Shown: positions 1 to 40,384, counted from the first letter of the stretch. The stretch: 64,000 bases of DNA from Deltaproteobacteria bacterium (GCA_040218735.1 JAVJQW010000021.1:91629-155628), one strand, 5' to 3'. Made by a program: numbers and translations. The notes: generated from the sequence alone by a model not told the origin.

Positions 1-155
1 CTGCCGCTCACGCTCGCGGAGTTCTGTCTGGCGCCGGCGCGCCGGTACCACGTCCGCCGTGAGACGAAGGGGAAGACCGAGATCTACCACCTGTCGGATC
101 GGCCGTTCGACACGAAGCGGCCCGCCACGCCGTACTACGCGAGCTGGACCCACTG
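1..155 (+). CDS. 3' end of an upstream CDS, partial (hypothetical protein)
   Basis: Frame-3 reading of bases 3-155 gives a non-Arg-biased peptide ...LAEFCLAPARRYHVRRETKGKTEIYHLSDRPFDTKRPATPYYASWTH ending at TGA 153-155. The frame stays open to the window edge and is too short for the ORF track. Confidence 0.3.
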
Positions 156-191
156 ACCGTCACGTCCGGCCGACCGTGTTAAAGAGCAGCG

Positions 192-1391
192 ATGGCTGCG
201 AACCAAGTGCGCTGCGCGGGGGACCTCGAGCTCCTCGACAAGCTGAAGACCAACCGCGACATCGCGAGGGTCATCGAGCGCCTCGACGAGGACGAGACGC
301 CCCGCGGTGTGCGCGCGCGTCTGCTCGGGACGTCCGTGCGCATCACGGAGGCGATGTCGCCGGAGCTGCTCTACATCGCGGCGCATTGTCGCGACGTCCT
401 CGACGTCGACGCACAGCTCGAGACGTTTGTCTTCCCGTCGGCGACCTTCAACGCCGCGGCGGTGAAGCCGGAGGACGGGCGGCTGTTCGTGTTGTTCTCT
501 TCGAGCCTGCTCGAGTCGTTCGAGCCCGCCGAGATCGAGTTCGTGATGGGCCACGAGCTCGGCCATCACCTCTTCCAGCACCACGACATGCCGATCGGTG
601 CGCTCGTGAACGGGCAGGTCGATCTCGATCCCGCGACCGTGCTCTCCCTGTTCGCTTGGTCGCGCTACGCGGAGATCTCCGCGGATCGCGCCGGCCTCGC
701 GTGTGTCCGCAAGATGGAGCCGGTCGCTTCGGCGTTCTTCAAGCTGGCGTCGGGCCTCTCCAACGGCGCCGTGAAGATGCTGCCGGAGCTGTTCGTCGAG
801 CAGCTCGGTGACATGCGCGAGGAGCTTCACCGCGGGCGAAGCGCGGAGGGGGTCGTCCGCGCCGACTGGTTCTCGACGCACCCCTTCAGCCCGTTGCGCA
901 TCCGCGCCGCGAAGGCGTTCGCGGAGTCGACCTACTTCGGTGGCGCGCGGCCGATCGATGACGTCGAAGGCGAGGTCAACGACCTTATGGCGTTGATGGA
1001 GCCGAGTTACCTGGAGGAGACGTCCCCCGAGGCGGAGATGATGCGTCGTCTCCTCTTCACGGGCGGCGTCGTCGTCGCGGCCGCCGCCAACGGGATCTCC
1101 GACGCGGAGCGCGCCGCGCTGGAGAAGCTCCTCGGCGAGGGGCGGCTCGGTACACGTGAGCTCGACGTCGAAGCGATCTCCGCGGACCTCGAGCGGCGTG
1201 CGCGTGACGTCTCGGAGGAGGTCCCGTTCCTGAGGCGTGTCCAGGTCATCCGCGACCTGTGTCTGATCGCGCTCGCGGATCACCGCGTCGAAGAGGCGGA
1301 GCGCGCCGCGCTCTATCGGATCGCGGAGCTCGTCGGCGTTCAGCGCGACTCCGTGGACCGTGCGCTCGACAACCCACCCGAGCTGGACTGA
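192..1391 (+). CDS. M48-family zinc metallopeptidase with a C-terminal TerB-like domain
   Basis: ATG at 192. Contains the HExxH motif (FVMGHELGHHLF) typical of M48/HtpX-like peptidases. The C-terminal 120 aa resemble a tellurite-resistance TerB-like helical domain (DAERAALEKLL..., HRVEEAERAALYRIAELVG). Codon usage is clean. Confidence 0.8.
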   Translation: MAANQVRCAGDLELLDKLKTNRDIARVIERLDEDETPRGVRARLLGTSVRITEAMSPELLYIAAHCRDVLDVDAQLETFVFPSATFNAAAVKPEDGRLFVLFSSSLLESFEPAEIEFVMGHELGHHLFQHHDMPIGALVNGQVDLDPATVLSLFAWSRYAEISADRAGLACVRKMEPVASAFFKLASGLSNGAVKMLPELFVEQLGDMREELHRGRSAEGVVRADWFSTHPFSPLRIRAAKAFAESTYFGGARPIDDVEGEVNDLMALMEPSYLEETSPEAEMMRRLLFTGGVVVAAAANGISDAERAALEKLLGEGRLGTRELDVEAISADLERRARDVSEEVPFLRRVQVIRDLCLIALADHRVEEAERAALYRIAELVGVQRDSVDRALDNPPELD

Positions 1392-1451
1392 CTTCACACT
1401 TCTTCATGCGTGCCCAGCGCTGCGTTCGAGGTCGGACGCGACGATGCACAC

Positions 1452-1877
1452 ATGAAGAAACAACACCTCGCCTTCGTCGCTGCATCGTTCTTCCTCCTCA
1501 CCGGCTTCCACGGAGGTTGCGGCACCCGCGATCCCGCGAAGCGCGCCGAGCGCGCGCAGCGCATGGCGCGCTCGCACGTGGAGGACCTCCTCGAGGACGT
1601 GGACGCCGACGCGACGCAGACCCAACGGATCCTCGGGCACACCGACGCGATGACGAAGCAGGCGCTCGTGCTCCACCAAGAGCATCAGACGACGAAGGCG
1701 CTCCTGCACGAGCAGTGGAAGTCGCCGAAGCCGGACGCCGCGCTCATCCACCGCACGATCGACGAGCGCACCGAGGGCGTCCGGAAGTTCCTGCACGCGC
1801 TCGCCGACGCGGTGATCGATACACACCAGACGCTGACGCCGGAGCAGCGCGAAGAGGTGTACGACGAGCTCCACTGA
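1452..1877 (+). CDS. Periplasmic LTXXQ-motif protein (Spy/CpxP-like stress chaperone family)
   Basis: Start MKKQHLAFVAASFFLLTGFHGGCG, a signal-peptide or lipoprotein-like N-terminus. The C-terminus carries LTPEQREEV, an LTXXQ motif, in a helical protein of about 140 aa. An alternative ATG exists at 1410. Confidence 0.55.
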   Translation: MKKQHLAFVAASFFLLTGFHGGCGTRDPAKRAERAQRMARSHVEDLLEDVDADATQTQRILGHTDAMTKQALVLHQEHQTTKALLHEQWKSPKPDAALIHRTIDERTEGVRKFLHALADAVIDTHQTLTPEQREEVYDELH

Positions 1878-1948
1878 TCCTGGGCGGTTACGTTTGCGCG
1901 AAGTACCCGGGTACGAAAACACCTCGATATCTGGGTACCGTGCACGTC

Positions 1949-4900
1949 ATGCGCACGCTCACCCGCTCGATTTTGCCCCTGTGCCTCGTCCTGTCCGCGT
2001 GCTCCGGCGACGACGACGGCGGTGACGACGTCACCCCCGCCGCGCTGGAGTTCGTGACCCTCGCGGACCTCCCCGGCGGCACGGTCGGCGAGGCCTACAA
2101 CACGACGCTCAACGTCCGCGGCGGCGACGGCACGTACACCTTCGCGCTCGTCAACGGCGCGTTCCCCGCGGGCCTCGACCTCACCGGCGCCACCGTCGGC
2201 GGCACCCCGACGATGGCCGAGACCGCGACGTTCCGCGTCGAAGCTTCGGACGGCTCCGGCCAGACGACGACGCGCGACTTCACGCTCACGATCGAAGCCG
2301 GCGCGAACACGCCCACGATCGTCACCGCGATGCTCCCCGGTGGCACCGTGGGCACGACGTACGACGCGACGATCACCGCGTCGGGCGGCGACGGGACGTA
2401 CACCTGGTCGGCGACTCCGGCCGACCTCCCGCCGGGGCTGACGTTGGGGACCGACGGTTCGCCGAGCACGACGCTCTCGGGCACACCGATCACGGAAGGC
2501 ACGTACACCTTCGACGTCCGCGTCACGGACGGCGCGGGTGAGAGCTCGAGCACGAGCTTCACCGTCACCGTGAACGCGATGCCGCTCCCGCTCCAGATCG
2601 ACACGATGACGCTCCCGGCTGCGGTGGTCGGCGAGGTGTACTCCGCGGACATCTTGGCCTCGAACGGTTCGCAGGCCGGGTACACGTGGGCCGTCACCGT
2701 CGGCGCATTGCCGCCCGGGTTGGTGCTCCGCGCGGACGCCACGCCGATGACCACGATCTCCGGGACGCCGACGATGGGCGGCACCTTCACCGCGACGATC
2801 TCCGTCTCCGACAGCGCGGGGGGCTCCGCGATCCGCGGCTTCACGATCGACGTCACCTACCCGCCGCTCGCGATCGCGCCCGCGAACCTCCCCAACGCCA
2901 CCCTCGGCGCGACTTACACCTCGACGCTCACCGCGTCCGGCGGCACCGGCACGGGTTACAGCTGGGCGATCACGGCGGGCGCCCTCCCGGCGGGCATGAA
3001 CCTCGTCGACGGCGGCGCGACCGCGACGATCGAAGGGGCTCCGACCGCGTTGGGGACATCGACGTTCACCGTCGAGCTCTCCGACGACGCGGGCGCCACC
3101 ACGACGATCGACTACACCGTCGAAGTGTTCCCGCCGCTCGCGATCGACACGCCGAGCCTCGCGCAGGTCGAGTCCGGCACGGCGTACACCGCCGCGATCA
3201 CGGCGTCCGGTGGCACGGGCGTCGGCTACGCGTGGTCGATCACCAACGGCGCGCTCCCGGCGGGCCTGACGCTCGCGCCGACCGGCACCCCCTCCACGAT
3301 GATCACCGGAACCAGCACCGCGATCGGCACCTACGACTTCACGGTGGGCGTGACGGACTCCGAGGGCCGCGTCGCCACGGCGACGTTCCGCCTCGTGGTC
3401 GCGCCGCCGATCGCGATCGTCACTGCAGCCATCGCCAGTCGTCCCATCTGCACGGCGACCACGGCTGCCGTCAGCGTGGTCGGTGGGATCCCACCGTTTG
3501 CTTGGACGACCGCAGGGACCCTCCCGGCCGGGCTGCAGGTCCAGACCTCGACCCAGGCGACGATCTTCGTCACGGGGCGCGGCACGACGCCCGGCACGCA
3601 GTCCGTGACCTTCGACGTCACCGACAGCACAGGCGCCACCGCCTCACGAACGTACGCCGTGACCGTAACGGACGATCCGGGAGCCCAACGCCTCCTGCTC
3701 GCGGTCGGCGACCTCCTCGTCGACAACGACACGAGTGTGTTCTTGTTCGACGTCTGCGGCGACACCCCCGGTGCGCCGGTGCAGCTCAACCCGAGCGCCC
3801 CCGGCGTGGCGGACGCGTCGACGGCGAACGACGACGCGGCGTTCTCTCCGGACGGGACGAAGGTGGCGTTCATCGGGGACTTCGCGAACGACACCAACCT
3901 CGACCTGTGGGTCGTCGACCTCACGGCGTCGCCGCTCTCGGCGGTCAACCTCACGTCCTACACGGCGCCGGGCGCGACGGTGCAGGACCTGAGGTGGGCA
4001 CCCAACTCCAGCTACCTCGCGTTCACCGCCGACCCGAACCTCTCCGGGAGCGACCAGCTGTTCTTCGTCGATGTCACGACGCCGAGCACCCCCGGCGCCC
4101 CCGTCCTGATCGGCGGAGCGACGCCGCCGCTCGACACGGGGCGCGACGTCTCCGACAGCGACTTCTTCTGGGCGCCGGACAGCTCGGGGATCGTCTTCCA
4201 CGGCGACCTCGACCTCGGCGGCGTGAACGAGCTGTACTACGCCAACACCGCCAACGCGGCCGCGCCGGTACCCGGCGTGAAGATCCACGCGCCGCTGACG
4301 GGGACTCAAGACTGCGAAGACGATGTCCTCTGGGCGCCCGACGCCTCGGGGGTGCTGTTCCGCTGCGACATCGTGACCGCGGACCAGGACGAGCTGTGGT
4401 TTGCGAGCTTTACGGGCGGCGCGCCGACGACGACGCGCGTGAACAACCTCGGCTACGGGGCCGACAACGACGTCGGGTTCAGCGACTACGCATTCAACGC
4501 CCAGAGCACCGCGCTGTTCTACATCGCAGACGAGACCATCAACGGCTCCGAGGAGCTGTGGCTGGTCCGCGTCGTCGCCGGCGTGCTCCAGGCTCCGCAG
4601 CGCATCCTGCCGGCGCTGACCGCGGGTCTAAGCGTGAGCTACGCGGCGTGGGATCCGTCCGGCACCCGCATCGCGTTTCGCGCCGACATCGACGCCGACG
4701 ACGTCTTCGACCTCTACATCGCGGACGTGAGCGCGACGATCCCCGTCCTCCCCACGCGGGTCAGCAACATGCCGGCGACGGGCGACCTCGACGCGTCGTC
4801 GACGCCGGGCTTCGGCTTCGCGTGGTCGAACGACGGCACCCGGATCGCGTTCGTGGGGGACCAGGACCTCGACGGCGTGGACATGGCGTACGTCGCCGAC

Positions 4901-5317
4901 GTGTCGGTGCCGCCGCCGTACACGAGCCGGTCGATCAGCCCGATGACGACGGACGGCGACTTCGACGTCTCCCAGGTCTACTGGAGTCCCGACGATTCGT
5001 GGATCGCGTTCCGCGGCGACTTCATGGTGGACGGCGCGTTCGATCTGTACGTCACGAACGTCTCGGGCGCCGGCCCCTACGTTCCGCAGATGGTGAACTC
5101 CGTGCTCCCGACCTCCGGCGACGTCTCGGGCGGCGCGGGCGCCTTCGAGTGGCGCGCCGACAGCCGTGGGGTCTTCTTCGAGTCGGACATGATCGTGAAC
5201 AACGACACCGAGTTCTGGATGTCCGACCTGTCCTCGGGCGCGCCGACGCTGCCGTTGCGCGTACATCCGATGCTGCCGACCAGCGCGGACGGAGCGTTCT
5301 TCTACCTGAATCCGTAG
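1949..5317 (+). CDS. Large lipoprotein with about 9 tandem Ig-like (He_PIG-type) domains followed by a PD40/TolB-like beta-propeller
   Basis: ATG at 1949 gives MRTLTRSILPLCLVLSACSG, a signal peptide with an LSAC lipobox. About 9 units of roughly 95 aa repeat the pattern LPxGTVGxxYxxxxxAsGGxGtYtwsxxxGaLPxGLxL. The C-terminal half has repeated W(A/S)PDxSxIAFxGD blades of PD40/TolB type. The long upstream extension in the ORF track (from 1259) is Arg-rich and non-coding-like. Confidence 0.85.
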   Translation: MRTLTRSILPLCLVLSACSGDDDGGDDVTPAALEFVTLADLPGGTVGEAYNTTLNVRGGDGTYTFALVNGAFPAGLDLTGATVGGTPTMAETATFRVEASDGSGQTTTRDFTLTIEAGANTPTIVTAMLPGGTVGTTYDATITASGGDGTYTWSATPADLPPGLTLGTDGSPSTTLSGTPITEGTYTFDVRVTDGAGESSSTSFTVTVNAMPLPLQIDTMTLPAAVVGEVYSADILASNGSQAGYTWAVTVGALPPGLVLRADATPMTTISGTPTMGGTFTATISVSDSAGGSAIRGFTIDVTYPPLAIAPANLPNATLGATYTSTLTASGGTGTGYSWAITAGALPAGMNLVDGGATATIEGAPTALGTSTFTVELSDDAGATTTIDYTVEVFPPLAIDTPSLAQVESGTAYTAAITASGGTGVGYAWSITNGALPAGLTLAPTGTPSTMITGTSTAIGTYDFTVGVTDSEGRVATATFRLVVAPPIAIVTAAIASRPICTATTAAVSVVGGIPPFAWTTAGTLPAGLQVQTSTQATIFVTGRGTTPGTQSVTFDVTDSTGATASRTYAVTVTDDPGAQRLLLAVGDLLVDNDTSVFLFDVCGDTPGAPVQLNPSAPGVADASTANDDAAFSPDGTKVAFIGDFANDTNLDLWVVDLTASPLSAVNLTSYTAPGATVQDLRWAPNSSYLAFTADPNLSGSDQLFFVDVTTPSTPGAPVLIGGATPPLDTGRDVSDSDFFWAPDSSGIVFHGDLDLGGVNELYYANTANAAAPVPGVKIHAPLTGTQDCEDDVLWAPDASGVLFRCDIVTADQDELWFASFTGGAPTTTRVNNLGYGADNDVGFSDYAFNAQSTALFYIADETINGSEELWLVRVVAGVLQAPQRILPALTAGLSVSYAAWDPSGTRIAFRADIDADDVFDLYIADVSATIPVLPTRVSNMPATGDLDASSTPGFGFAWSNDGTRIAFVGDQDLDGVDMAYVADVSVPPPYTSRSISPMTTDGDFDVSQVYWSPDDSWIAFRGDFMVDGAFDLYVTNVSGAGPYVPQMVNSVLPTSGDVSGGAGAFEWRADSRGVFFESDMIVNNDTEFWMSDLSSGAPTLPLRVHPMLPTSADGAFFYLNP

Positions 5318-5320
5318 GGG

Positions 5321-5992
5321 TCAGTCGGCGAGGGTGTCCCGAATCGCGTTCTTGAAGCCGGCTTCCGAGAACGCCTGGCGGAACGAGATTCGGGAGCCTT
5401 CTTCGAGCACGAAGTGCACGTGCCGGTTCGCGAGGCCCACGCTACGCAGCTGCGTGTCGCGGTCGTACAGCACGGTCACGTCCGGCATCATGTTCTGGAT
5501 CTGCTGACACAGCGCCTGGTCCGGTGCGCCGGACCGGCTGTTCTGCCAGATCACGAAGTACGGCTCGAAGTCTTCTTGCAGGAACTCCTGCATCTCTGAG
5601 TTCACCACCCGGGCGAACGCACGACAGCTCCCTCACCAATCGGCGTACACGAAGTAGTACGCCGCCTTACGTTCGCAGGGGTCTTGGAGGTTGTGCATGT
5701 TTCCGGCGCAGTCGGGGAGCGCCAGGTCCGGGAAGATCGCGCCGACGTTCGTGCCGGTCGTGTCGCTCGGGGGACAGAGCGCGTTCGCGACGCCGCCGTC
5801 GCGGAAGCCGCCGTCACGCCCGCCGGCTTCTTCGCCGCCGTCCCGGAAGCCGCCGTCGCGGCCCAGCGCCGTCGACCCGGCGTCGCGGGGCGCTTCGACG
5901 TTTTCGTCGTCACCCCCTCCGGTCCCGCACGCGAACGCCAGCGTGAACAACGCGGGGAACGCCAAGGGTTTGAATTGTTCGAGCTGCACCAC
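5321..5992 (-). CDS. TlpA/ResA-like thiol:disulfide oxidoreductase lipoprotein with an in-frame TGA at the first Cys of WCxxC (candidate selenoprotein, motif W-U-G-S-C; alternatively a nonsense pseudogene)
   Basis: Two minus-strand ORFs, 5633..5992 and 5321..5608, are in the same frame and separated only by TGA (complement of 5633-5635). The joined sequence reads ...IFPDLALPDCAGNMHNLQDPCERKAAYYFVYADW-[TGA]-GSCRAFARVVNSEMQEFLQ...HFVLEEGSRISFRQAFSEAGFKNAIRDTL. This aligns to the redoxin/TlpA pattern F-x-L-x-D..G......vLvnFWAsWC-x-x-C. The N-terminus MVQLEQFKPLAFPALFTLAFACG is a lipoprotein signal. The second half has no independent ATG or RBS; its first codon is GTG. Confidence 0.6.
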
Positions 5993-6078
5993 CGCCTCCT
6001 ACGTGCGCTACCGACCGAAGTTACGCGCAGATCGTGCGGCGCCCGCCGCCCGCTGACAAGCGGCGGTTGTCGGTAGGG

Positions 6079-8148
<2,070 letters not shown>

Positions 8149-8233
8149 CGCGACCCCACGCTAGCGGTCGGGGCCCGAGCGACCAAGCGACATCGCCGCG
8201 AAAATCGTTGCGAAGAAGGACGGGGCGTCGGCG

Positions 8234-9388
8234 TCAGCGGTTCACGCCGTTGTAGTTGGCGAGCGAGTCCCAATGCGACACGTCGATCCCCTCGGCGATC
8301 GCGGCGTTTCGCATGCGGTCGTAGGCGATCGCGTCGGACCAGTTCCGCGGGTTCGCGCGGTCGAGGACGTTCACGATCTTCGTCGACCCGTAACCGTAGT
8401 TGGTGTGCAGGTCCCAGAAGAAGCGAAGCCAGTCGAGCTCGGTGGCGCGGTCGGTGGTCGGGGCACCGCAGTAGGTCCCGAGATAGTCGGCCCCACCCTC
8501 GCAGTCGCGGACCTGCGGGAACTCGGCCCAGCCATCCTTGTTGTAGTCGATGAGATCGTAGTCGAAGATCTCGCAGCTGCTCTCGCCGCTGTCGTTGAAG
8601 ACGGCGGCCGAGTAGAAGTGCGCATACCCGTTGACGATCGCGACGGACTGGTACTCGCGACTCACGAGGTCGTGGAGTGTGTTGCCCCACTCGTCGCAGG
8701 CACCTCCGTAGGATGCGAAGTTGTAGATGGGGCTCGCGAACTCGTCACGCTTGTACGCGACCAGGTGACCCACCTCGTGCGCGATTCGAAACTTCCGGTC
8801 CGTGTCGCCCGAAGACGTGTAGACGTTGCCGTTGTGGACACACATGTCGGAGGCGACCGGGCACGCGGCGTCGAAGATGGCGAACGCCTGGTTCCAGTGC
8901 CCCCCGTTCTCTCTTTCGATCGCGTACCCGGCGGCCGCCAACACGTTGACCCAGTCTTCGCCGTGGCCGCTCGTGGGGTTCTCGATGACGAGCTCGTAGG
9001 ACCCGTTGCCGATAGGCCTGAAGATCGGTGCGACCAGCTGGTCGTAGAGCCCGCCCCCGGCGTTGAACCGGTAGACGATGTTCTCGTGCGAGGTCTGCAC
9101 GACGCTGAGGACCCGAACCTTGTAGTTCTGGTCGTACATCTCGAGCGCACCCGTACAGCCCGTCTCGGGATCGGTCAGGCCCCCGTGGACCACGTTCCAG
9201 GCGTTGTCGAGGACGTGGTACAGGATGCCCCGCGCGGGTTTGGGCGCGGTCGAGTTCCACCAGTCGCCGCCATCGCGGTCGGCGTAGTCCACTTCGAACT
9301 TCAAGCAGATGTCGACGTTCCACGCGGAGGCGGTGGCGGGGGTCGCGAAGATGCCTGCGACGAGCAGCGCGGCCAGGGTGAGTCTCAT
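8234..9388 (-). CDS. Secreted hypothetical protein with an HExxH motif (putative zinc metalloprotease)
   Basis: Signal peptide MRLTLAALLVAGIFATPATASA. Contains HEVGH (FRIAHEVGHLVAY). Rich in Cys, Trp and Asn. Its ATG overlaps the stop of the upstream gene by 4 nt (ATGA). Confidence 0.7.
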   Translation of the reverse strand: MRLTLAALLVAGIFATPATASAWNVDICLKFEVDYADRDGGDWWNSTAPKPARGILYHVLDNAWNVVHGGLTDPETGCTGALEMYDQNYKVRVLSVVQTSHENIVYRFNAGGGLYDQLVAPIFRPIGNGSYELVIENPTSGHGEDWVNVLAAAGYAIERENGGHWNQAFAIFDAACPVASDMCVHNGNVYTSSGDTDRKFRIAHEVGHLVAYKRDEFASPIYNFASYGGACDEWGNTLHDLVSREYQSVAIVNGYAHFYSAAVFNDSGESSCEIFDYDLIDYNKDGWAEFPQVRDCEGGADYLGTYCGAPTTDRATELDWLRFFWDLHTNYGYGSTKIVNVLDRANPRNWSDAIAYDRMRNAAIAEGIDVSHWDSLANYNGVNR

Positions 9389-10050
9389 CGTGCTTCTCCT
9401 TCGGCCGGCGTGAACCGGTAGATGCCCGAGCCGATCCGCAGCGGGTGTTCGTTCGATCGATTGGGGTCTTGGAGTTGCGCGCCGTAGCGCGCGCGAATCA
9501 CGTCGTTGGTCAGGCCGTCGGCGTAGTCGGCCGCGAAGGTCTCGTGGCAGAAGACTCGGTTCGAACCCTCCGCCGACACCGCGAGGTAGCGCCCGGGGAG
9601 TCGTTTGCGATGGACCACCCGACCGTCGTCGTCGAGGAGGCTTACCGAGGTGAGGATCCGCGTGACGTGATCGCGTTGTTTCGCGTGCATCCTGAACGCG
9701 GGGCGTAGGTCGAGCGCGGCCTCTCTCACCTCACCCGCCGCGAGCGCGTACCGCGACTCGGTGAGGACGACCTCGAGCACACCGATGCGTGCGCGGGACT
9801 CGACGAGGACCGTGGCGGCGCGATCACTCGGTGCGCGGATCGCGACCGTGACGATTGGACTCGTTCCGTCGCTCGCGATCGTCGCCTCTCCGCCGCCGAT
9901 CCACGCCGCAGGTTGCCCGAGCTCTTCGAGTTCGTACGCAGGACGCGAGGCTTCGTCGTTCGGATCGTCGAGGGGTTCTCGATCCTCGACCGATCCGACC
10001 GAGCACGCCGTCGCTGCGCTCAGCAATAGGAAGTACTTGATTGGAGTCAT
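9385..10050 (-). CDS. Hypothetical lipoprotein or secreted protein
   Basis: Real start is at MTPIKYFLLLSAATACS (ATG as the complement of 10048-10050), which is signal-peptide-like with a Cys. The upstream part of the 352-aa track ORF is Arg-rich junk. The gene is translationally coupled to the downstream metalloprotease-like gene. Confidence 0.65.
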   Translation of the reverse strand: MTPIKYFLLLSAATACSVGSVEDREPLDDPNDEASRPAYELEELGQPAAWIGGGEATIASDGTSPIVTVAIRAPSDRAATVLVESRARIGVLEVVLTESRYALAAGEVREAALDLRPAFRMHAKQRDHVTRILTSVSLLDDDGRVVHRKRLPGRYLAVSAEGSNRVFCHETFAADYADGLTNDVIRARYGAQLQDPNRSNEHPLRIGSGIYRFTPAEGEAR

Positions 10051-10099
10051 GCCCAGGGCAGTGGCCGCGGGCGCAGCATCTCTTCGAAAAAATCCGCGC

Positions 10100-10131
10100 G
10101 AGAGCGGGGGCGTCGAAACGCCCCCGCTCTC
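10100..10131 (-). terminator. Hairpin terminator downstream of the Cys-rich secreted protein gene
   Basis: Perfect 13-bp inverted repeat GAGAGCGGGGGCG / loop TCGAAA / CGCCCCCGCTCTC, 8 nt after the stop at 10139. On the transcribed (minus) strand it is followed, after a 7-nt spacer, by UUUUUU (the complement of AAAAAA at 10087-10092). Confidence 0.5.
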
Positions 10132-10138
10132 GGACACG

Positions 10139-13100
10139 CTACCGGTACTGCTGACAGAAGAACGGGTTGGCGCTCGGACCCGCGCAGCTCGGGGGCACGC
10201 AGTGCCCCGGGTAGAACGTCGCGTTGTCACAGACGTAGTGCGACGGGAACCCGAGCGTCGCGCACTGGGCCGAGCTCGTGCACTCCTCTTCGCAGACGTC
10301 GGGCGGTCCCGCGTCGCGACACACCATCTGGTTCTCGGCTTCGCACGTCCCCTGCGAGATTCCGTCGCAGGTGTTGAGCGTGTTGACGCACACGCCGTGG
10401 TCCGCCTTCGTGTCCCACTGGTCGAAGTAGCACCCGCCGACATGCGAGGCGTACCCGTCGATCGCGTCGCAGTTGTCGAGGCAGAACCAGCGCATCTCCT
10501 CGAGCGCCTCCTGTCCGTCCGACGTCCCAGGATCCGGGAGGCAGGTACCCGGCGCGCTTCCGGGCCAACCTTCCTCCTGAGGAGAGCCCACGCACTTGAG
10601 GTCGGGCTCGTCGGGGAAGGCGCAGTCGGCGTTCGTTTCGCACGAGCAGCCGATCATCGTCTTGTCGCCGCACTTCATGCACTCCGCGTACTCGTCGATT
10701 CCGTTCTTCACGATCTTTCCGCACACGATCTGTTCGTTGGTGTCGTCCTCGCAGTACTGACCCGGCCCGTACGAGCCGTGCGCGACATACGAGCCCGCCC
10801 CGTCCGGGAACCCACCGTCGAGGAGGATGTCGTCGAACTGGGACACGACGACGTCACGACACGGGCAGCCCTCGAGGCCCCACTCGTTCGGGTCGTCGGG
10901 GTCACCGCACTGGGAGTATTCGTGTGGGTTCGGCGTGAGTGAGTAACTCAGACGGTTACGACATTTGTTGCTGTCGTAGACGGACTTCGTCAGCGACGAA
11001 GGCTCCGAGAAGTCGACGAACGCGAAGGTGTCGCTGGTGTGCTCACGGCCCGTCTTGATGTCGAGCTCGATGCTCGGCACCGGGATGAGCTTCTCGACGG
11101 ACGGAAGGTTCGCGCGGCAACCTTGGATGGCTCCCGCGATCCCCTCCCAGCTGTCCTCGAGCACCTGGTCGAGGGGGGTGCCGTTGGCGTTGTGCTCGAT
11201 GCAGTGGGTCATGATCTCCGGCTGCATGGCCCACGCCTTGATCTGCGCGAGGAGCTCACAACGTGCATCGTTCGTGGGGTTCGGTAGGGCGTTGGTCAGG
11301 CATTTGAACGGCGCGACCGTCGTGTTGAGCGGCAGCGGGAGGTCCACGTTGTCGAGGTTGAGCGCCAGGTCGCACACCCGAACGGTTTCGTCGTCGCCGT
11401 CGTCGTCCACGTCGTACTCGAACATCCCGGTCATCACGCAGATCGAAACCTGCGCTTCATCGAGGCGAGCGAACGATTGCTTCGCGTCGGGATCCGAGTA
11501 ACCGATGATCTGGTCCGCGAGCTGCGGGTTCCAGGGCTGCGTGATCGAGACGTTGTTCACGTGTGCCCCGTACAGGCTCTGGAAGGCCGGGGCCGCCGGC
11601 TGGGCCTCCTGGAGGATTCGAGCCCAACGCACGAATCGGTTTGAGCCGAGCTTTCGTGCTGCGCTGGTTCCGCTCGGGGCGCTGATGTCCAAGGTGATCG
11701 AGCCGGACGGGCCGATGTCCGCGACCGGCGCGGGCGGACACGCGTCGAGATCGTCGATGAACGTCTCCTCGGCGATGGCCGTCGTGATGTCTTCCTCGAC
11801 GAACCCGGTGACGATGTCGTTGGCGCTGCAGGGTGGGTTGCCGGAGATGCTCCCCCAGATTCCACACGCCGTATCGACGATCCAAGCGATGGTCGTCACG
11901 GCGGGTACGCCACCTTCGATGTCGACCTGAATGTCGACGGGCTGGAAGCGGATCGCGCTGAGCGCTCCGGCCCCCGGAACACACTGCGGCTCGAGCTTCA
12001 TCTGGATGCCGAACTCGGCGAGCCAGTTGTACTTCGTCCCCTTCGGCTCGGCGCAAGGCTTCGCGACGCCGAACGGGCAGTCGTAGTCGGAGTCGACGCC
12101 GTTGAGCACCTCGATGTCGAGGTCGACGACCAGGAGGTCCTGGTCGGTCGCGCCACCCACCGCCTCACGCGTCAGCTCTACCCACGGCGAGCTCTTGCGG
12201 TTGCCGACCGGCGGGCAGCCGCCCAGATCGCAGTCGGGCTGATTCACGCCGTACGTCCCCCGCCACGCGAACTGCAGGCCGCGGCCGTTGTCACAGAAGA
12301 GCGAGCCCGAGCAAGCGTCGGAGTCGTTGCCGCTCTTGAGGCGGTCCGCGAGGGTGCGGCCGAACGAGCCCTCGATCAGCGCTGCGACGCGCTCTTCGGA
12401 CAAGGTCACGGCGCCGAGGTTTGCCTTGAACGCGTCGGCGTCCGGCGCGGCGCCGTCCTCCGGGACGGGGAGGGCACCGATCAGCGACACGGCCTCGTTC
12501 TCGGACAGACCCCAGGAGGGGTTCATGCGCAGCTGAGCACCGGTCCATCCGGAGATTCCGCCGAGCGAGGAACCGCCGGACACGTGTTTGAGGAACTGCG
12601 CCGTCGGGCTCTTCACCTCGTGGAAGAACTCGATGCCGCGGATGCTGAGGGTGACCTCGTCGATCAGCCACTCCGTGTCGTAGGAGCGCCCTGCGCAAGG
12701 GATCGTGTGGGGGTTCTCGAAGCAGTTCGTGGCCGGGAGATCGAGGCCGAACTCCAGCTTCTCGATGCCTGCGAAGGTGGTGACGCCAGGGGCCACGACC
12801 GAGTAGCTGTCCGTGACCTCCTTGCGAAGGTCGTCGATGCCACGCTCGAGGTAGTTACAGATGGGCGTCGTCTCGACGTAGGGCCCGTCGCAGTCGTTGA
12901 GTTGCCAGCAAGCGTCGCGGGTGTTGGTACACACGCCGAGGCAGTTCTCGTCGCCGGGCGCGCACTGATCGGCGCACGTCTCGGCGTCTTCGAGGCATTG
13001 ATCGCAGTTCGGCTTCAGGTTCTCGCAGCCCTCCTTGACGAGGCAGGTCTCGTAGGAGGTGACGCAGGTGTCACAGCCGCGACCGGAACAGGTTTCGAGG

Positions 13101-13225
13101 CAGCCGATGAGCACTTCGCTGCACTCCTTACAGGCGACCTCGAACCCGGGGCCGTTCGCGTAGGCGGCGGGGGCACCGAGCATCGTGAGTAACGTCGCGA
13201 CTCGGCTGAGCGTTTGGGGGGACAT
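10139..13225 (-). CDS. Large (about 1028 aa) Cys-rich secreted protein, hypothetical
   Basis: Start MSPQTLSRVATLLTMLGAPAAYA (signal peptide; ATG as the complement of 13223-13225). It is dense in Cys (CKECSEVLIGCLETCSGRGCDTC...). The C-terminal third looks like EGF/Cys-knot modules (CSCETNADCAFPDEPDLKCV..., CEEECTSSAQCATLGFPSHYVCD). There is no recognisable enzymatic motif. Confidence 0.8.
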   Translation of the reverse strand: MSPQTLSRVATLLTMLGAPAAYANGPGFEVACKECSEVLIGCLETCSGRGCDTCVTSYETCLVKEGCENLKPNCDQCLEDAETCADQCAPGDENCLGVCTNTRDACWQLNDCDGPYVETTPICNYLERGIDDLRKEVTDSYSVVAPGVTTFAGIEKLEFGLDLPATNCFENPHTIPCAGRSYDTEWLIDEVTLSIRGIEFFHEVKSPTAQFLKHVSGGSSLGGISGWTGAQLRMNPSWGLSENEAVSLIGALPVPEDGAAPDADAFKANLGAVTLSEERVAALIEGSFGRTLADRLKSGNDSDACSGSLFCDNGRGLQFAWRGTYGVNQPDCDLGGCPPVGNRKSSPWVELTREAVGGATDQDLLVVDLDIEVLNGVDSDYDCPFGVAKPCAEPKGTKYNWLAEFGIQMKLEPQCVPGAGALSAIRFQPVDIQVDIEGGVPAVTTIAWIVDTACGIWGSISGNPPCSANDIVTGFVEEDITTAIAEETFIDDLDACPPAPVADIGPSGSITLDISAPSGTSAARKLGSNRFVRWARILQEAQPAAPAFQSLYGAHVNNVSITQPWNPQLADQIIGYSDPDAKQSFARLDEAQVSICVMTGMFEYDVDDDGDDETVRVCDLALNLDNVDLPLPLNTTVAPFKCLTNALPNPTNDARCELLAQIKAWAMQPEIMTHCIEHNANGTPLDQVLEDSWEGIAGAIQGCRANLPSVEKLIPVPSIELDIKTGREHTSDTFAFVDFSEPSSLTKSVYDSNKCRNRLSYSLTPNPHEYSQCGDPDDPNEWGLEGCPCRDVVVSQFDDILLDGGFPDGAGSYVAHGSYGPGQYCEDDTNEQIVCGKIVKNGIDEYAECMKCGDKTMIGCSCETNADCAFPDEPDLKCVGSPQEEGWPGSAPGTCLPDPGTSDGQEALEEMRWFCLDNCDAIDGYASHVGGCYFDQWDTKADHGVCVNTLNTCDGISQGTCEAENQMVCRDAGPPDVCEEECTSSAQCATLGFPSHYVCDNATFYPGHCVPPSCAGPSANPFFCQQYR

Positions 13226-13360
13226 GATATCGAGCTCCCTTCGGGTTGGTCGACGCGGGGGTTCGCGTCGTTCCTGGCCTCCTTCAGCGCGACTACGAGC
13301 GATCTGACGAAGAAAGAAAAACGAATGAATCGGTCCGCGGCGCGCCACTGCCGTGCCGAG

Positions 13361-14980
13361 ATGAAGCTCGACACAAAACGAAACCAGCTCTGGATGGCGT
13401 GTGGAATCGCCCTGACATGGGTGGGGTGCAGCCCCGTCGATCTCGAGGTGCCCGAGGTCGAGACGACCCAGCGTCCGCTCTACTTCGTCGCGGACAAGAT
13501 CCGGGACGAACGCGACATCGACGTCTGCTGGCAGGACGCTGGTTATGCCGCGGACAAGGCGCTCGTGCGCGAGGCGCTCAAGGGGCAGCGGTCATGGGAG
13601 GCGGTCGGCGGAATGAACTTCGTCGGCTGGGACGACTGTACGGGCGGCGAGGATATTCGAATCCGGGCCGGTGACTCGTACGGGGTCATCTACCTCCAGG
13701 ACCCGATCGACTACGCGATCATGACCCTCAACTTCGACGACGCCCTCAACTCCCAACGCTGCGCCATCGCGGGGCTGAATCGCGACGACTGCATTCAGGC
13801 GGTCGCCCTGCACGAGTTCGGGCACGCGCTGGGGTACACCCACGAACAGAACCGCCCCGACGAAGAAGGATGTTCGTGGGGGGCCTCGGGGACCAATGGC
13901 GACACGACCTACGGGAACTTCGACATCGACGCCATCATGGGCCACTGCAACTGGACGACGGAGCTGAGCGGCATCGAGGCGCGTGGCACCGCCTACGTCT
14001 ACGGGCCCCACCTCGGGGACCACTCCAACGCAGGTGACTACAACGGCGACGGGAACGACGACATCATGTGCCACAGCCGCATCGGCGGGGACGTCTGGGT
14101 CGAGCTCGCCAACTCATCGGGTGAATTCAGCTACAACAACTTCTACAGTGACAACGACTGGTGCCGCCACGACAGCGCGCGACTCTACAAGGGGGACTTC
14201 AACGGTGACGGGCGCACGGATCTCCTCTGTCACAACCTCGAGGAAGGCGCCGTCTGGGTCGACTACGCCGGCACGTCGGGTCAGTTCTACGGGACCGACT
14301 GGAGCATCGACAACGATTGGTGCAGGGCCACGGGCGCCTATCTTCACATCGGTGACTTCAACGGAGACGGTCGCGACGACCTGCTCTGTCACAATCGCGT
14401 GAGCGGGACGGTTCACGTCGACTACGCCAACGCGTCGGGGCGCTTCTACGGGACGGACTGGTGGGCCAACAACAGCTGGTGCAACGCGCCGGGCGCAAGT
14501 CTGTACGTGGGGAGCTTCGACGGAAACTCCAGCGATGATCTCCTCTGTCACAACGTCGACAACGGGTGGCTTCACATCGACCTCGCGAGTGCGAGCGGGC
14601 AATTCAACGGCTCGAATTTCTCGGCGGACACCAACTGGTGCGTCACCGGTGGTGCCGAGCTTCGCGTTGGTGACTTCGACGGTGACGGGTGGGACGACCT
14701 GCTGTGCCACAACGCAGGGACGGGTTGGAAACACATCGACTACTTCTGGAACGGGTTCACGGGCACCGACTGGAGCCGCGACGCCCAGTGGTGCCGGACG
14801 AACGGCGCCCGCCTGTACATCGGTGACTTCAACGGCGACGGTCGGGACGACATGCTGTGCCACAACGTCGCGACGGGTTGGAAACACATCGACTACGCCA
14901 ACAGCGCCGGTGAGTTCAATCAGACCGACTGGAGCCTGGACTCGCAGTACTGCCGCGCGGACGGGAGCAAGCTGCACTGA
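13361..14980 (+). CDS. Astacin-like (M12A-type metzincin) metalloprotease fused to a 7-blade FG-GAP-type beta-propeller
   Basis: HEFGHALGYTHEQNRPDEE matches the astacin signature HExxHxxGxxHExxRxDRD. It is followed by 7 repeats of about 47 aa (GDFNGDGRDDLLCHN....W.DYA..SG.F....W..D..WC), which are FG-GAP/integrin-alpha-like. The N-terminus MKLDTKRNQLWMACGIALTWVGCS is signal or lipoprotein-like. An alternative ATG exists at 13325. Confidence 0.85.
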   Translation: MKLDTKRNQLWMACGIALTWVGCSPVDLEVPEVETTQRPLYFVADKIRDERDIDVCWQDAGYAADKALVREALKGQRSWEAVGGMNFVGWDDCTGGEDIRIRAGDSYGVIYLQDPIDYAIMTLNFDDALNSQRCAIAGLNRDDCIQAVALHEFGHALGYTHEQNRPDEEGCSWGASGTNGDTTYGNFDIDAIMGHCNWTTELSGIEARGTAYVYGPHLGDHSNAGDYNGDGNDDIMCHSRIGGDVWVELANSSGEFSYNNFYSDNDWCRHDSARLYKGDFNGDGRTDLLCHNLEEGAVWVDYAGTSGQFYGTDWSIDNDWCRATGAYLHIGDFNGDGRDDLLCHNRVSGTVHVDYANASGRFYGTDWWANNSWCNAPGASLYVGSFDGNSSDDLLCHNVDNGWLHIDLASASGQFNGSNFSADTNWCVTGGAELRVGDFDGDGWDDLLCHNAGTGWKHIDYFWNGFTGTDWSRDAQWCRTNGARLYIGDFNGDGRDDMLCHNVATGWKHIDYANSAGEFNQTDWSLDSQYCRADGSKLH

Positions 14981-14986
14981 CCCCGC

Positions 14987-27189: not shown

Positions 27190-27219
27190 CGTCGCGGTGT
27201 CGGATGGTATGGTCCCGCC

Positions 27220-28920: not shown

Positions 28921-28941
28921 CGCGCGGGGCGACGCGACGCC

Positions 28942-29832
28942 GTGGGGATTCGCATCGTCTCGTTGTTGCCGAGTGCGACGGAGATCTGCGTCGCGCTCGG
29001 GCTCGGGGAGTCGCTGGTCGGCGTCTCTCACGAGTGTGATCGACCGGGCGTACCGGTGATGACGCGGTCGTTCGTCGACGCCGACCTGAGCTCGGCGCAG
29101 ATCGATGCGGCGGTGCGCGAACGTGTCGCGTCGGAGCGTCCGATGTTCGTATTGGACGAGGCCGCGCTCGCGGCGGCGGCGCCGGACCTGATCCTCACGC
29201 AGGACACCTGCGCGGTGTGTGCGATCCCGGCTCGCGACGTCGAGAGCGTCGCGCGGTCCGCGGTGGGGGATTCGGTGCGGTTGGTGTCGCTCGCGCCGCG
29301 GACGCTCGACGACGTGTTCGCGAGCATGCGCGCGGTGGCGCAGGCGGCCGATGTCGAGGTGAAGGGGGAGGCGTTGGTCGCGGGGCTGCGCGCGAGCCTC
29401 GCGAACATCGCGCGGCAGGTGGACTGGGCGCACAAACGGGTCGCGTTCATCGAGTGGCTCGAGCCGCCGATGATGGCGGGGCACTGGACGTGTGAGCTGA
29501 TTCGGATCGCGGGCGGTGAGGCCGTCGGAGGCCACGAGGCGGCGCCGACGGTGCCGACCCGCTGGGACGCCGTGCGCGCGCTGGAACCCGAGCTCGCGAT
29601 CGTCTGTCCGTGCGGGTTCTCGGTAGCGCAGACCCGATCCGAGCTCGCGCGGGTGCGGCACGAGCTCGGGCCGATCCCCATCGCGGTGATCGACGGGAAC
29701 GCCTTCTTCCACCGGGCGGGGCCGAGGCTCGTGAAGTCGGCGGAGCTGGCGCAGATCGCGATCGGGGGCTTCGACCGCGATGTACTCGCGAACGAGATGC
29801 TCGTGTTCCCGCCGTCGTGGCCGCTCGGCTGA
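28942..29832 (+). CDS. Periplasmic-binding-protein-like (TroA/BtuF-fold, Peripla_BP_2-type) protein without a signal peptide
   Basis: MGIRIVSLLPSATEICVALGLGESLVGVSHECD matches the N-terminus of Fe/B12-type ABC substrate-binding proteins (RIVSL.PS.TE.l.aLG....lvGvs). No N-terminal signal sequence is present. Confidence 0.6.
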   Translation: MGIRIVSLLPSATEICVALGLGESLVGVSHECDRPGVPVMTRSFVDADLSSAQIDAAVRERVASERPMFVLDEAALAAAAPDLILTQDTCAVCAIPARDVESVARSAVGDSVRLVSLAPRTLDDVFASMRAVAQAADVEVKGEALVAGLRASLANIARQVDWAHKRVAFIEWLEPPMMAGHWTCELIRIAGGEAVGGHEAAPTVPTRWDAVRALEPELAIVCPCGFSVAQTRSELARVRHELGPIPIAVIDGNAFFHRAGPRLVKSAELAQIAIGGFDRDVLANEMLVFPPSWPLG

Positions 29833-29854
29833 CGTTCGCCTATCATCCGCGCCC

Positions 29855-39559: not shown

Positions 39560-39569
39560 CTCATCCTCC

Positions 39570-40379: not shown

Positions 40380-40384
40380 CTTCG

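What the first reader, a model, noticed from the sequence alone, without database searches (positions are those of the whole stretch)
5321..5992. Candidate selenoprotein: TlpA-like lipoprotein with an in-frame TGA replacing the first Cys of WCxxC (W-U-G-S-C)
Two adjacent minus-strand ORFs are in the same frame, separated by a single TGA (complement of 5633-5635). Joined, they form one complete thioredoxin-fold thiol:disulfide oxidoreductase. The stop codon falls exactly at the nucleophilic Cys of the conserved FWAsWCxxC motif (here ...YYFVYADW-TGA-GSCRAF...). The downstream half has no ATG or RBS of its own. This is the classic signature of bacterial Sec-containing redoxins (UxxC). A palindromic hairpin TGCAGG-AACT-CCTGCA (5577-5592), which on the mRNA is UGCAGG-AGUU-CCUGCA, lies about 40 nt 3' of the UGA on the mRNA. 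A SECIS-like stem-loop may also exist nearer the UGA, but I cannot fold it reliably by eye. If real, this implies a Sec-decoding system (selA/selB/selD, tRNA-Sec) elsewhere in the genome. The alternative explanation is a recent nonsense mutation or pseudogene.
Basis: partly seen in the sequence, partly recalled or inferred. Interest (0 to 1): 0.75.

Follow-up and report, generated by a model that had tools for sequence, protein, structure and literature searches.

The report
Unannotated selenocysteine lipoprotein, thioredoxin-fold redox enzyme
The in-frame TGA is almost certainly a selenocysteine codon in the active site of an exported thioredoxin-like lipoprotein; public annotation splits this one gene into two "hypothetical proteins", but it is a new member of an already known kind of selenoprotein.

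Summary
One minus-strand gene (5989..5321) carries an in-frame TGA at 5633-5635, at the first Cys of the W-C-x-x-C motif of a TlpA/ResA-like thioredoxin-fold lipoprotein. The selenocysteine reading is strongly supported:
- All 12 distinct homologous genes whose DNA I could read have TGA in this column followed by x-x-Cys.
- 34 further database "proteins" end at the residue just before it, and 95 full-length homologues have Cys there (mostly WCPPC).
- Codons after the TGA are under the same purifying selection as those before it (dN/dS 0.28 vs 0.23).
- A hairpin sits in one register in all 12 Sec genes: 14-nt spacer, 7-bp stem, 5-nt loop N-G-[G/U]-N-N (window 5600-5618). It has compensatory changes, constrained synonymous sites, and fits the published bacterial SECIS model.

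Not testable here: selA/selB/selD/tRNA-Sec in the source genome. The window is from NCBI MAG GCA_040222965.1, "Deltaproteobacteria bacterium", with Myxococcales-type relatives.

UxxC TlpA-like selenoproteins are already catalogued, so this is a new member of a known kind.

The parts
5995..6000 (-). Shine-Dalgarno AGGAGG
   Evidence: Read directly. It lies 5 nt upstream of GTG 5989.
5987..5989 (-). Probable start codon GTG (an alternative GTG is at 5990-5992)
   Evidence: An in-frame TAG lies 3 codons upstream. NCBI's call for the sibling MAG (P0008, MQLEQF...) starts here.
5927..5986 (-). Signal peptide with lipobox (residues 2-21, ...FTLAFA-C21; the Cys21 codon is 5927-5929)
   Evidence: 52 of 72 full-length homologues have a lipobox-like motif in their first 60 residues. 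The homologue on L003 has the classical LVGC.
5783..5926 (-). Gly/Asp-rich low-complexity tether (residues 22-69)
   Evidence: Its length and sequence vary between homologues.
5324..5782 (-). Thioredoxin-fold (TlpA/ResA-like) domain, residues 70-222. It includes four further family-conserved Cys: C72, C94, C105 and C161.
   Evidence: Weak Pfam hits. Profile search of the PDB gives E=6e-7 to the Etrx lipoproteins. AlphaFold model pLDDT 95.1, pTM 0.90. Foldseek against the PDB finds ResA/DsbE/CcmG/Etrx at TM 0.70-0.76. Conservation.
5633..5635 (-). In-frame TGA, read as selenocysteine U119, the nucleophilic position of the W-U-G-S-C motif
   Evidence: TGA is at the same column in 12 distinct genes. 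Cys is at this column in 95 full-length homologues. In the model the residue lies between strand beta1 and helix alpha1.
5624..5626 (-). TGT, Cys122, the resolving Cys of UxxC
   Evidence: Invariant in all alignments.
5600..5618 (-). Candidate SECIS hairpin GUUCGCC-CGGGU-GGUGAAC. The 7-bp stem begins 14 nt after the UGA. The 5-nt loop begins 21 nt after the UGA and fits N-G-[G/U]-N-N.
   Evidence: Energy -7.8 kcal/mol. Same register in 12 of 12 Sec-form genes. Covariation, synonymous-site test, Cys-form comparison. Model criteria taken from PMC13188914.
5321..5323 (-). True stop codon, also TGA
   Evidence: It shows that TGA is an ordinary stop in this genome, so the genetic code is not reassigned.

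Best explanation
The region 5989..5321 (minus strand) is one gene for a 222-residue selenoprotein.

Decoding (shown by comparative evidence; the factors themselves are inferred). UGA119 is read as selenocysteine. An mRNA hairpin 14 nt downstream (window 5600-5618), with a G-[G/U] apical loop, would recruit SelB carrying Sec-tRNA(Sec) to the ribosome.

Export (inferred from sequence). The product has a signal peptide and a lipobox. It would be exported, lipidated at Cys21, and held on a membrane by a tether of about 48 residues rich in Gly and Asp.

Function (fold shown, activity inferred). The TlpA/ResA-like thioredoxin-fold domain carries a U119-G-S-C122 redox centre at the N-terminus of helix alpha1. 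It would cycle between selenol/thiol and selenenylsulfide, acting as an extracytoplasmic thiol:disulfide oxidoreductase. By analogy with ResA, CcmG, TlpA and Etrx it is probably a reductase kept reduced by a CcdA/DsbD-type membrane protein. The four additional conserved cysteines probably form two structural disulfides.

Family. The gene belongs to a sizeable family from uncultured Myxococcales-type bacteria. About a quarter of its sequence clusters use Sec and the rest use Cys.
For: (1) TGA recurs at the identical column, followed by x-x-Cys and a continuing homologous frame, in 12 distinct genes.
- Window (identical to L005), L007, L001, L010, L008, the paralogue L012, L003 and L004.
- Four more genes chosen blind from truncated database proteins: L019, L020, L021, L023.

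(2) An exhaustive HMMER search of 1.84 billion representative proteins gave 206 hits. Of the 158 sequences held, 34 end exactly at the residue before the site, 20 begin 5-25 residues after it, and 95 are full length with Cys there. Cys forms with DNA are L015 (WCPYC), L016 (WCPPC), L017 and L018. So Sec/Cys pairs exist.

(3) Window versus L001: dS is about 0.9. dN/dS is 0.23 upstream of the TGA and 0.28 downstream.

(4) The hairpin.
- All 12 Sec genes share the same spacing, stem and loop pattern. This geometry occurs at 0.24% (stem of 4 bp or more) or 0.02% (7 bp) of in-frame positions in the window's genes.
- 100% of stem cells are paired. Four of 7 pairs change on both sides. Covariation score is 0.578 against 0.228 in shuffles (0 of 500 reach it). 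Slid-partner controls pair at most 49%.
- L021 keeps pair 1 through G-C to C-G, across amino-acid changes.
- Given each protein's amino-acid sequence and the window's codon usage, 7/7 pairing has P=0.04-0.13 per lineage, yet all 7 lineages show it.
- Only 1 of 4 Cys forms has the hairpin, and that one is a close orthologue of a Sec form.
- It meets the published bSECIS criteria: loop of 3-9 nt, stem of 4-16 bp, G in the first two loop positions, spacing of 16-37 nt, MFE of -7.5 or lower. Observed energy is -7.8 kcal/mol.

(5) Fold: pLDDT 95.1; ResA/DsbE/CcmG/Etrx at TM 0.70-0.76; PDB profile hits.

(6) TGA is also this gene's own terminator and ends neighbouring genes, so the code is not reassigned.

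(7) The same TGA is present in a 94%-identical sibling genome assembled from another sample (L006/L007).

(8) Sec use is documented in a cultured relative: Anaeromyxobacter dehalogenans has 11 selenoproteins (PMC1794560).
Against: - No selA, selB, selD or tRNA-Sec was found in the 64-kb window or in any fetched locus. The rest of the MAG could not be searched.
- No Rfam family matches the hairpin, even at E up to 10.
- Folding energies are not better than shuffles in this 68% GC sequence: z = -0.7 over 81 nt and -0.15 over 51 nt.
- The hairpin core of L004 is -6.6 kcal/mol, above the model's cut-off. L003 and L004 need a 1-2 nt bulge, which I removed by hand for the pair count.
- The hairpin arms coincide with a conserved peptide (F-A-x-x-A/V-N), so part of its conservation is protein-level.
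- The Sec lineages are related, so the product of probabilities (1.6e-8) overstates their independence.
- The lipoprotein fate, the redox partner, the direction of catalysis and the disulfides are inferred only. No redox partner gene is adjacent; the neighbours are RecQ and a large lipoprotein.
Confidence: 0.88

Rival explanations
1. Recent nonsense mutation or pseudogene: the TGA inactivates a former Cys-form TlpA-like gene, and the downstream half is decaying.
For: NCBI annotates two separate hypothetical proteins. Cys-form homologues exist.
Against: TGA sits at the same column in 12 distinct genes, and 34 database proteins are truncated at the residue before it. Downstream dN/dS is 0.28 at dS about 0.9, the same as upstream. 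There are no frameshifts or extra stops in any copy. The downstream hairpin is conserved.
Confidence: 0.02
2. Sequencing or assembly error at 5633-5635 (the true codon would be TGC or TGT).
For: The source is a metagenome-assembled genome.
Against: The same TGA appears in independent samples and assemblers: NCBI GCA_040223155.1, Logan SRR26209243, SRR26421928/30 and ERR3420974, and several ENA assemblies.
Confidence: 0.01
3. UGA is recoded or read through without selenocysteine, for example by near-cognate Trp or Cys insertion, or by SelB-independent read-through promoted by the hairpin.
For: The Sec machinery could not be shown in this genome. The hairpin might promote read-through generically.
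Against: The TGA replaces the catalytic Cys of a CxxC centre, which is the classic Sec position. The homologues alternate only between Cys and TGA at this column, never Trp. The hairpin's spacing and G-[G/U] loop fit the SelB-type bSECIS consensus. A cultured relative, Anaeromyxobacter dehalogenans, is documented as using Sec.
Confidence: 0.06
4. Two genuinely separate genes: a 118-residue lipoprotein and a 94-103-residue cytoplasmic protein, as annotated.
For: In-frame GTG and ATG codons exist after the TGA (5608, 5605, 5593), and gene callers use them.
Against: The split would cut a single thioredoxin fold at its active site. AlphaFold models the joined sequence as one compact domain at pLDDT 95. 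95 homologues are single chains. There is no RBS before the internal starts. The residues between the TGA and the internal starts (GSCRAFARVV) are conserved and include the invariant Cys.
Confidence: 0.02

Closest known systems
[quoted passage not shown]
   Same: Sec replaces the first Cys of the CxxC motif in a TlpA/redoxin-type thioredoxin fold. Cys-form homologues exist. A bSECIS lies immediately downstream of the UGA.
   Different: I could not compare sequences with the catalogued examples, so identity with one of them is neither shown nor excluded. The joined protein reaches no Pfam gathering score and matches no NCBIfam selenoprotein model. This family is lipoprotein-anchored, carries four extra conserved Cys, lacks the canonical cis-Pro, and comes from Myxococcales-type MAGs.
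ResA (B. subtilis), CcmG/DsbE (E. coli, Chlorobium) and TlpA (Bradyrhizobium): Cys-based extracytoplasmic thiol:disulfide reductases
   Same: Same fold, including the N-terminal beta-hairpin (Foldseek TM 0.70-0.76; PDB profile hits). The active site is at the start of helix alpha1. The location is extracytoplasmic and membrane-tethered.
   Different: Sequence identity is 10-20%. Sec replaces Cys. The tether is a lipid anchor rather than a transmembrane helix. The cis-Pro is replaced by His/Asp/Ser. No cytochrome c maturation genes lie next to it; a CcmH-like gene is 40 kb away.
Streptococcus pneumoniae surface thioredoxin lipoproteins Etrx1/Etrx2 (PDB 4hqs, 2yp6, 4hqz)
   Same: These are the best sequence-profile matches among solved structures (E=6e-7, about 23% identity). 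They are also lipoprotein-anchored TlpA-like reductases.
   Different: They are Gram-positive and use WCGPC with Cys. They keep the cis-Pro (IPTEY).
Bacterial SECIS consensus (bSECISearch model; E. coli fdhF is the archetype)
   Same: A stem-loop inside the coding sequence just 3' of the UGA. A small apical loop has G followed by G or U in its first positions. The UGA-to-loop spacing is 21 nt (allowed range 16-37). The energy is -7.8 kcal/mol.
   Different: There is no sequence similarity to fdhF and no Rfam match. No bulged U is evident in the upper stem. SelB binding is untested.

Membership tests
Bacterial selenoprotein gene (Sec-UGA plus bSECIS) | In-frame UGA conserved at the same position in orthologues, with the reading frame and homology continuing downstream | tested here: met
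   12 of 12 distinct genes with DNA. 34 N-terminal fragments end at the site and 20 C-terminal fragments start just after it.
Bacterial selenoprotein gene (Sec-UGA plus bSECIS) | Cys/Sec pair: homologues have Cys aligned to the UGA | tested here: met
   95 full-length homologues have Cys at the column. L015, L016, L017 and L018 have TGT or TGC at the DNA level.
Bacterial selenoprotein gene (Sec-UGA plus bSECIS) | Sequence 3' of the UGA is under purifying selection as protein | tested here: met
   dN/dS is 0.28 downstream and 0.23 upstream, at dS about 0.9.
Bacterial selenoprotein gene (Sec-UGA plus bSECIS) | bSECIS model: apical loop of 3-9 nt, upper stem of 4-16 bp, G in the first two loop positions, 16-37 nt from UGA to loop, MFE of -7.5 kcal/mol or lower (PMC13188914) | tested here: met
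   Window: loop CGGGU, 7-bp stem, spacing 21 nt, -7.8 kcal/mol. The register is conserved in 12 of 12 Sec genes. One homologue (L004) has a core energy of only -6.6.
Bacterial selenoprotein gene (Sec-UGA plus bSECIS) | Evolutionary support for the hairpin beyond the coding constraint | tested here: met
   Covariation, synonymous-site resampling, and 12/12 Sec forms against 1/4 Cys forms. Caveats: few independent lineages, and bulges were removed by hand.
Bacterial selenoprotein gene (Sec-UGA plus bSECIS) | Genome encodes selA, selB, selC (tRNA-Sec) and selD | not testable with these tools
   None are present in the 64-kb window or the fetched loci. The other contigs of GCA_040222965.1 could not be reached.
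Bacterial selenoprotein gene (Sec-UGA plus bSECIS) | Selenium demonstrated in the protein (75Se labelling or mass spectrometry) | not testable with these tools
   This needs an experiment.
TlpA/ResA/CcmG-like thiol:disulfide oxidoreductases (cd02966; Pfam Redoxin / AhpC-TSA / Thioredoxin_8 clan) | Thioredoxin fold with an N-terminal beta-hairpin and a central insertion | tested here: met
   AlphaFold pLDDT 95.1. Foldseek TM 0.70-0.76 to ResA, DsbE, CcmG and Etrx.
TlpA/ResA/CcmG-like thiol:disulfide oxidoreductases (cd02966; Pfam Redoxin / AhpC-TSA / Thioredoxin_8 clan) | W-C-x-x-C redox motif at the N-terminus of helix alpha1 | tested here: met
   W-U-G-S-C lies between strand 40-47 and helix 52-67 of the model. 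It aligns to WCGPC of Etrx.
TlpA/ResA/CcmG-like thiol:disulfide oxidoreductases (cd02966; Pfam Redoxin / AhpC-TSA / Thioredoxin_8 clan) | Conserved cis-proline loop opposite the active site | tested here: not met
   The Pro of Etrx IPTEY aligns to His in N-R-H-V-H-F. The family column is D/S/E/H, preceded by a near-invariant Asn. Only the distant Cys forms L017 and L018 keep T-P. This rests on alignment only; the peptide geometry in the model was not inspected.
TlpA/ResA/CcmG-like thiol:disulfide oxidoreductases (cd02966; Pfam Redoxin / AhpC-TSA / Thioredoxin_8 clan) | Score above the Pfam or NCBIfam curated cut-off | tested here: not met
   AhpC-TSA scores 24.1 against a cut-off of 26, Thioredoxin_2 22.2 against 27, and Redoxin 18.7 against 26.6. 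NCBIfam gives only E>0.005 hits, far below the cut-offs.
Bacterial lipoprotein | N-terminal signal peptide ending in a lipobox Cys | tested here: met
   MQLEQFKPLAFPALFTLAFA-C21. The match to the PROSITE-type lipobox pattern was applied from memory. 52 of 72 homologues match a lipobox regular expression. No dedicated predictor was available.
Rfam SECIS families | Covariance-model match | tested here: not met
   No match at gathering score, nor at E up to 10 over 5450-5750.

The most novel reading that the evidence does not exclude
This is a selenoprotein family not yet in the catalogues: membrane-anchored, exported seleno-lipoproteins of uncultured Myxococcales-type bacteria. Its features are a TlpA-like fold that has lost the canonical cis-Pro, two extra probable disulfides, its own tightly conserved SECIS (14-nt spacer, 7-bp stem, N-G-[G/U]-N-N loop), and repeated Sec/Cys switching. 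One switch left a Cys form (L015) that still carries the intact hairpin.
Probability: 0.45. Interest if true: 0.5.

Novelty: new member of a known kind. Interest (0 to 1): 0.4.

Why it matters
Practical. The gene is mis-annotated in GenBank as two hypothetical proteins (for example RIU46_37235 and RIT81_18575). At least about 35 sequence clusters in public databases are truncated in the same way. A family model that allows U at this column would correct them.

Biological. It indicates that this lineage of uncultured Myxococcales-type bacteria decodes selenocysteine and places a selenol-based redox centre outside the cytoplasm on a lipid anchor. The family contains many Sec forms and many Cys forms, a SECIS in one fixed register, and one Cys form that retains the hairpin. 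That makes it a compact natural data set for studying how Sec/Cys conversions and SECIS elements arise within a coding sequence.

It does not change the general picture of bacterial selenoproteins.

Tried and rejected
Its loop starts 46 nt after the UGA. It is broken in L001, L008 and L010 and absent in the other clades.
- Thermodynamic significance of folding: uninformative in 68% GC sequence.
- Rfam: no hit.
- tRNA-Sec by ARAGORN in the window and 12 loci: none.
- selA/B/D among the window's ORFs by NCBIfam and Pfam: none.
- First scans of genome contigs and metagenome contigs with a 3-sequence alignment: nothing, because the patterns were too narrow.
- First two word-index homology searches: only 3 hits, because the low-complexity linker saturated the candidate list. 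Removing the linker fixed this.
X at the site was accepted.
- Single-sequence AlphaFold: useless, pLDDT 42.
- MAFFT alignments of the split fragments to the joined protein: misaligned and discarded.
- afdb50 fold library: not available.
- Cluster look-up for taxonomy: no organism names.
- Distant-pair dN/dS (window against L003 or L004): saturated and uninformative.
- Code reassignment of TGA: rejected, because TGA terminates this gene and its neighbours.

Full report
**1. Observation**

On the minus strand the sequence reads ...TAC GCC GAT TGG TGA GGG AGC TGT CGT GCG TTC GCC....
- A single frame runs from GTG 5992/5989 to a TGA stop at 5321-5323. It has one internal TGA at 5633-5635.
- The translation is a signal peptide with a lipobox, then a Gly/Asp-rich linker, then ...YYFVYADW-*-GSCRAF..., continuing to ...IRDTLAD.
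- AGGAGG (5995-6000) lies 5 nt before the second GTG (5989). NCBI uses that start for the sibling genome (P0008).
- Both halves have coding-type composition: GC3 of 0.86 and 0.87, with low GC2.
- Among all in-frame TGAs in the 64-kb window, only this one and one ordinary gene junction are flanked on both sides by coding-like sequence.
- One correction: the downstream half does contain in-frame GTG and ATG codons, which gene callers used. None has a recognisable RBS.

**2. Source of the window**

Window positions 1-15605 are 100% identical to NCBI MAG GCA_040222965.1, contig JAVKBZ010000132.1, labelled "Deltaproteobacteria bacterium".
- By coordinates the window would be roughly record positions 91196-155195, but identity was verified only over those 15.6 kb.
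- In that record the two halves are separate genes. The C-terminal half is "hypothetical protein RIU46_37235".
- A sibling MAG, GCA_040223155.1, is 94% identical in DNA and has the same layout.
- More distant relatives are titled "uncultured Myxococcales bacterium".

**3. Is the TGA conserved?**

The word-index homology search first returned only truncated "proteins" that end at ...YAEW or ...FAGY. Their DNA shows TGA followed by SGC or PSC and a continuing homologous frame. Removing the low-complexity linker from the query recovered more fragments and their contigs.

Eight distinct genes all have TGA at the same column:
- five RecQ-adjacent orthologues (window, L007, L001, L010, L008);
- two members of a divergent clade (L003, L004);
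- a 33%-identical paralogue in the sibling genome (L012).

An exhaustive HMMER search of 1.84 billion representatives gave 206 hits. Among the 158 sequences held:
- 95 are full length with Cys at the column, mostly WCPPC;
- 34 end exactly at the residue before it;
- 20 begin 5-25 residues after it.

As an out-of-sample test I picked four more truncated representatives before seeing their DNA. All four end in TGA and continue U-PSC, U-TGC, U-GGC or U-SGC. Cys forms with DNA (L015, L016, L017, L018) carry TGT or TGC at that column. So the standard Cys/Sec-pair criterion is met.

**4. Is the downstream half translated?**

Between the window and L001, dS is about 0.9. dN/dS is 0.23 before the TGA and 0.28 after it. 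No copy has a frameshift or an additional stop. TGA is also this gene's terminator and ends the neighbouring genes, so TGA is not reassigned genome-wide.

**5. The SECIS**

The published bacterial model (review PMC13188914) requires:
- an apical loop of 3-9 nt;
- an upper stem of 4-16 bp;
- a G in the first two loop positions, usually followed by G or U;
- 16-37 nt between the UGA and the loop;
- MFE of -7.5 kcal/mol or lower.

In the window, 14 nt after the UGA, lies GUUCGCC-CGGGU-GGUGAAC (5618-5600) at -7.8 kcal/mol.

Evidence that the hairpin is conserved:
- All 12 Sec-form genes have a hairpin in the same register, with a 5-nt loop N-G-[G/U]-N-N. L003 and L004 have different sequences (CCGGGCC/GGCC-A-CGG and GCGGGCC/GGCU-AA-CGC) and encode different peptides.
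- This geometry occurs at 0.24% of in-frame positions of the window's genes for a stem of 4 bp or more, and at 0.02% for 7 bp. The generic model alone is satisfied at 12% of positions.
- In the pair count, every cell is paired and 4 of 7 pairs change on both sides. The covariation score is 0.578 against 0.228 for shuffles (0 of 500 reach it). Slid-partner controls pair at most 49%. I had removed the bulged bases of L003 and L004 for that alignment.
- L021 changes pair 1 from G-C to C-G across two amino-acid replacements.
- Holding each protein sequence fixed and redrawing synonymous codons from the window's usage gives 7/7 pairs with P=0.04-0.13 per lineage. All seven lineages have 7/7.
- Of four Cys forms, only L015 has the hairpin. 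L015 is a close orthologue of the Sec paralogue L012.

Caveats:
- Folding energies are not better than shuffles in this GC-rich sequence.
- Rfam has no match.
- The lineages are not independent.
- The stem overlaps a conserved F-A-x-x-A/V-N peptide.

It is not the SECIS.

**6. The protein**

- Pfam hits are all thioredoxin-clan families just under threshold. NCBIfam has nothing specific.
- A family profile finds the S. pneumoniae Etrx lipoproteins (E=6e-7), tryparedoxins, ResA, DsbE and TlpA in the PDB. WCGPC aligns to W-U-x-x-C.
- With 72 Cys-form homologues as the alignment, AlphaFold gives pLDDT 95.1 and pTM 0.90. The Sec lies between strand beta1 and helix alpha1.
- Foldseek's best matches are ResA, DsbE/CcmG and Etrx at TM 0.70-0.76.
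- Family-wide conserved residues include four extra Cys: C72, C94, C105 and C161 in full-length numbering.
- The canonical cis-Pro column holds His/Asp/Ser instead of Pro.
- 52 of 72 homologues have a lipobox-like N-terminus.

**7. Mechanism**

- Shown: the conserved UGA, the translated downstream half, the conserved hairpin, and the fold.
- Inferred: SelB with Sec-tRNA(Sec) recognises the hairpin. The protein is exported and lipidated. U119 and C122 cycle through a selenenylsulfide as an extracytoplasmic thiol:disulfide oxidoreductase, kept reduced by a CcdA/DsbD-type partner. The extra Cys form structural disulfides.
- No partner gene is adjacent. The neighbours are RecQ and a large Ig-repeat/TolB-like lipoprotein.

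**8. What could not be tested**

Indirect support:
- a second Sec-form paralogue in the sibling genome;
- another UxxC candidate of a different family next to a Cys-form homologue in a Myxococcales MAG (L017 position 11781);
- documented Sec use in Anaeromyxobacter dehalogenans (PMC1794560).

**9. Comparison and novelty**

UxxC thioredoxin-fold selenoproteins are catalogued, including the "thiol-disulfide isomerase-like" class (cd02966, the TlpA-like family), "thiol:disulfide interchange protein" and "Prx-like thiol:disulfide oxidoreductase". This gene works like those and is a new, unannotated member of that kind. Whether it is the same family as a catalogued one could not be checked. It fails the Pfam and NCBIfam cut-offs and lacks the cis-Pro, so I file it as TlpA-like by fold, not as a member of a named family.

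**10. Verdict**

This is a genuine selenoprotein gene (confidence about 0.88). Interest is moderate: it is mainly an annotation correction plus a tidy comparative data set.

Noticed in passing
L015 2811 (GCA_030426505.1, JAUHYN010000448.1), compared with L012 9923: A Cys-form paralogue (W-C-PYC, codon TGT) keeps the complete SECIS-type hairpin GUUCGCC-GGGUC-GGCGAAC of its Sec-form orthologue (W-U-PYC). This is either a fossil SECIS after a Sec-to-Cys switch, or a pre-existing hairpin that allowed a Cys-to-Sec switch.
   Followed up: partly
L017 11781 (+), uncultured Myxococcales MAG CAZBRS010000042.1: A second in-frame TGA candidate from a different thioredoxin-like gene (...AYFGTCT-U-GGCQQQ...). 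A hairpin AGCAGC-AGGUU-GCUGCU starts 10 nt after the UGA. It lies 1.3 kb downstream of a Cys-form member of the family studied here.
   Followed up: partly
window 5420-5437 (residues 185-190, L-A-N-R-H-V) and family alignments A7/A10: The whole family, Sec and Cys forms alike, lacks the canonical cis-proline of the thioredoxin fold. The aligned column is His/Asp/Ser/Glu, next to a near-invariant Asn. Only the most distant Cys forms (L017, L018) keep Thr-Pro.
   Followed up: partly
window 35334-37898 (+): An 840-residue ORF has Major Vault Protein domains (Vault_3 at 5.5e-9, MVP_shoulder at 1.9e-7). Bacterial MVP homologues have been described (bioRxiv 10.1101/872010), so this is unusual but not new.
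   Followed up: partly
window 27190-46080: A cluster related to sulfur or sulfate-ester metabolism: a bifunctional ATP-sulfurylase/APS kinase (27190-28920), a sulfotransferase (38990-39595) and three phosphodiesterase/sulfatase-family genes (40713-46080), followed by a CcmH-like gene (46097-46696). ATP sulfurylase also activates selenate, but I found no link to the selenoprotein.
   Followed up: no
window 1-15605, identical to L005 (JAVKBZ010000132.1, GCA_040222965.1): The window is from a public MAG in which the selenoprotein is annotated as two hypothetical proteins (118 aa and 94 aa). The same split appears in GCA_040223155.1 and GCA_030426505.1.
   Followed up: yes
L012 9545-10240 (GCA_040223155.1, JAVKDZ010000026.1): The sibling genome carries a second, 33%-identical Sec-form paralogue (W-U-PYC) at an unrelated locus, between an OsmC-fusion hydrolase and Fpg. 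Whether the window's own genome has it is unknown; it is not in the window (tblastn).
   Followed up: partly
window 1940-5314 (+): The convergent neighbour, whose stop lies 3 nt from the selenoprotein's stop, is a 1122-residue lipoprotein with tandem He_PIG/Ig-like repeats and a TolB/PD40-like propeller. This adjacency and the RecQ gene on the other side are conserved in the close relatives L005-L007. L010 keeps only RecQ, and L008 has neither.
   Followed up: no
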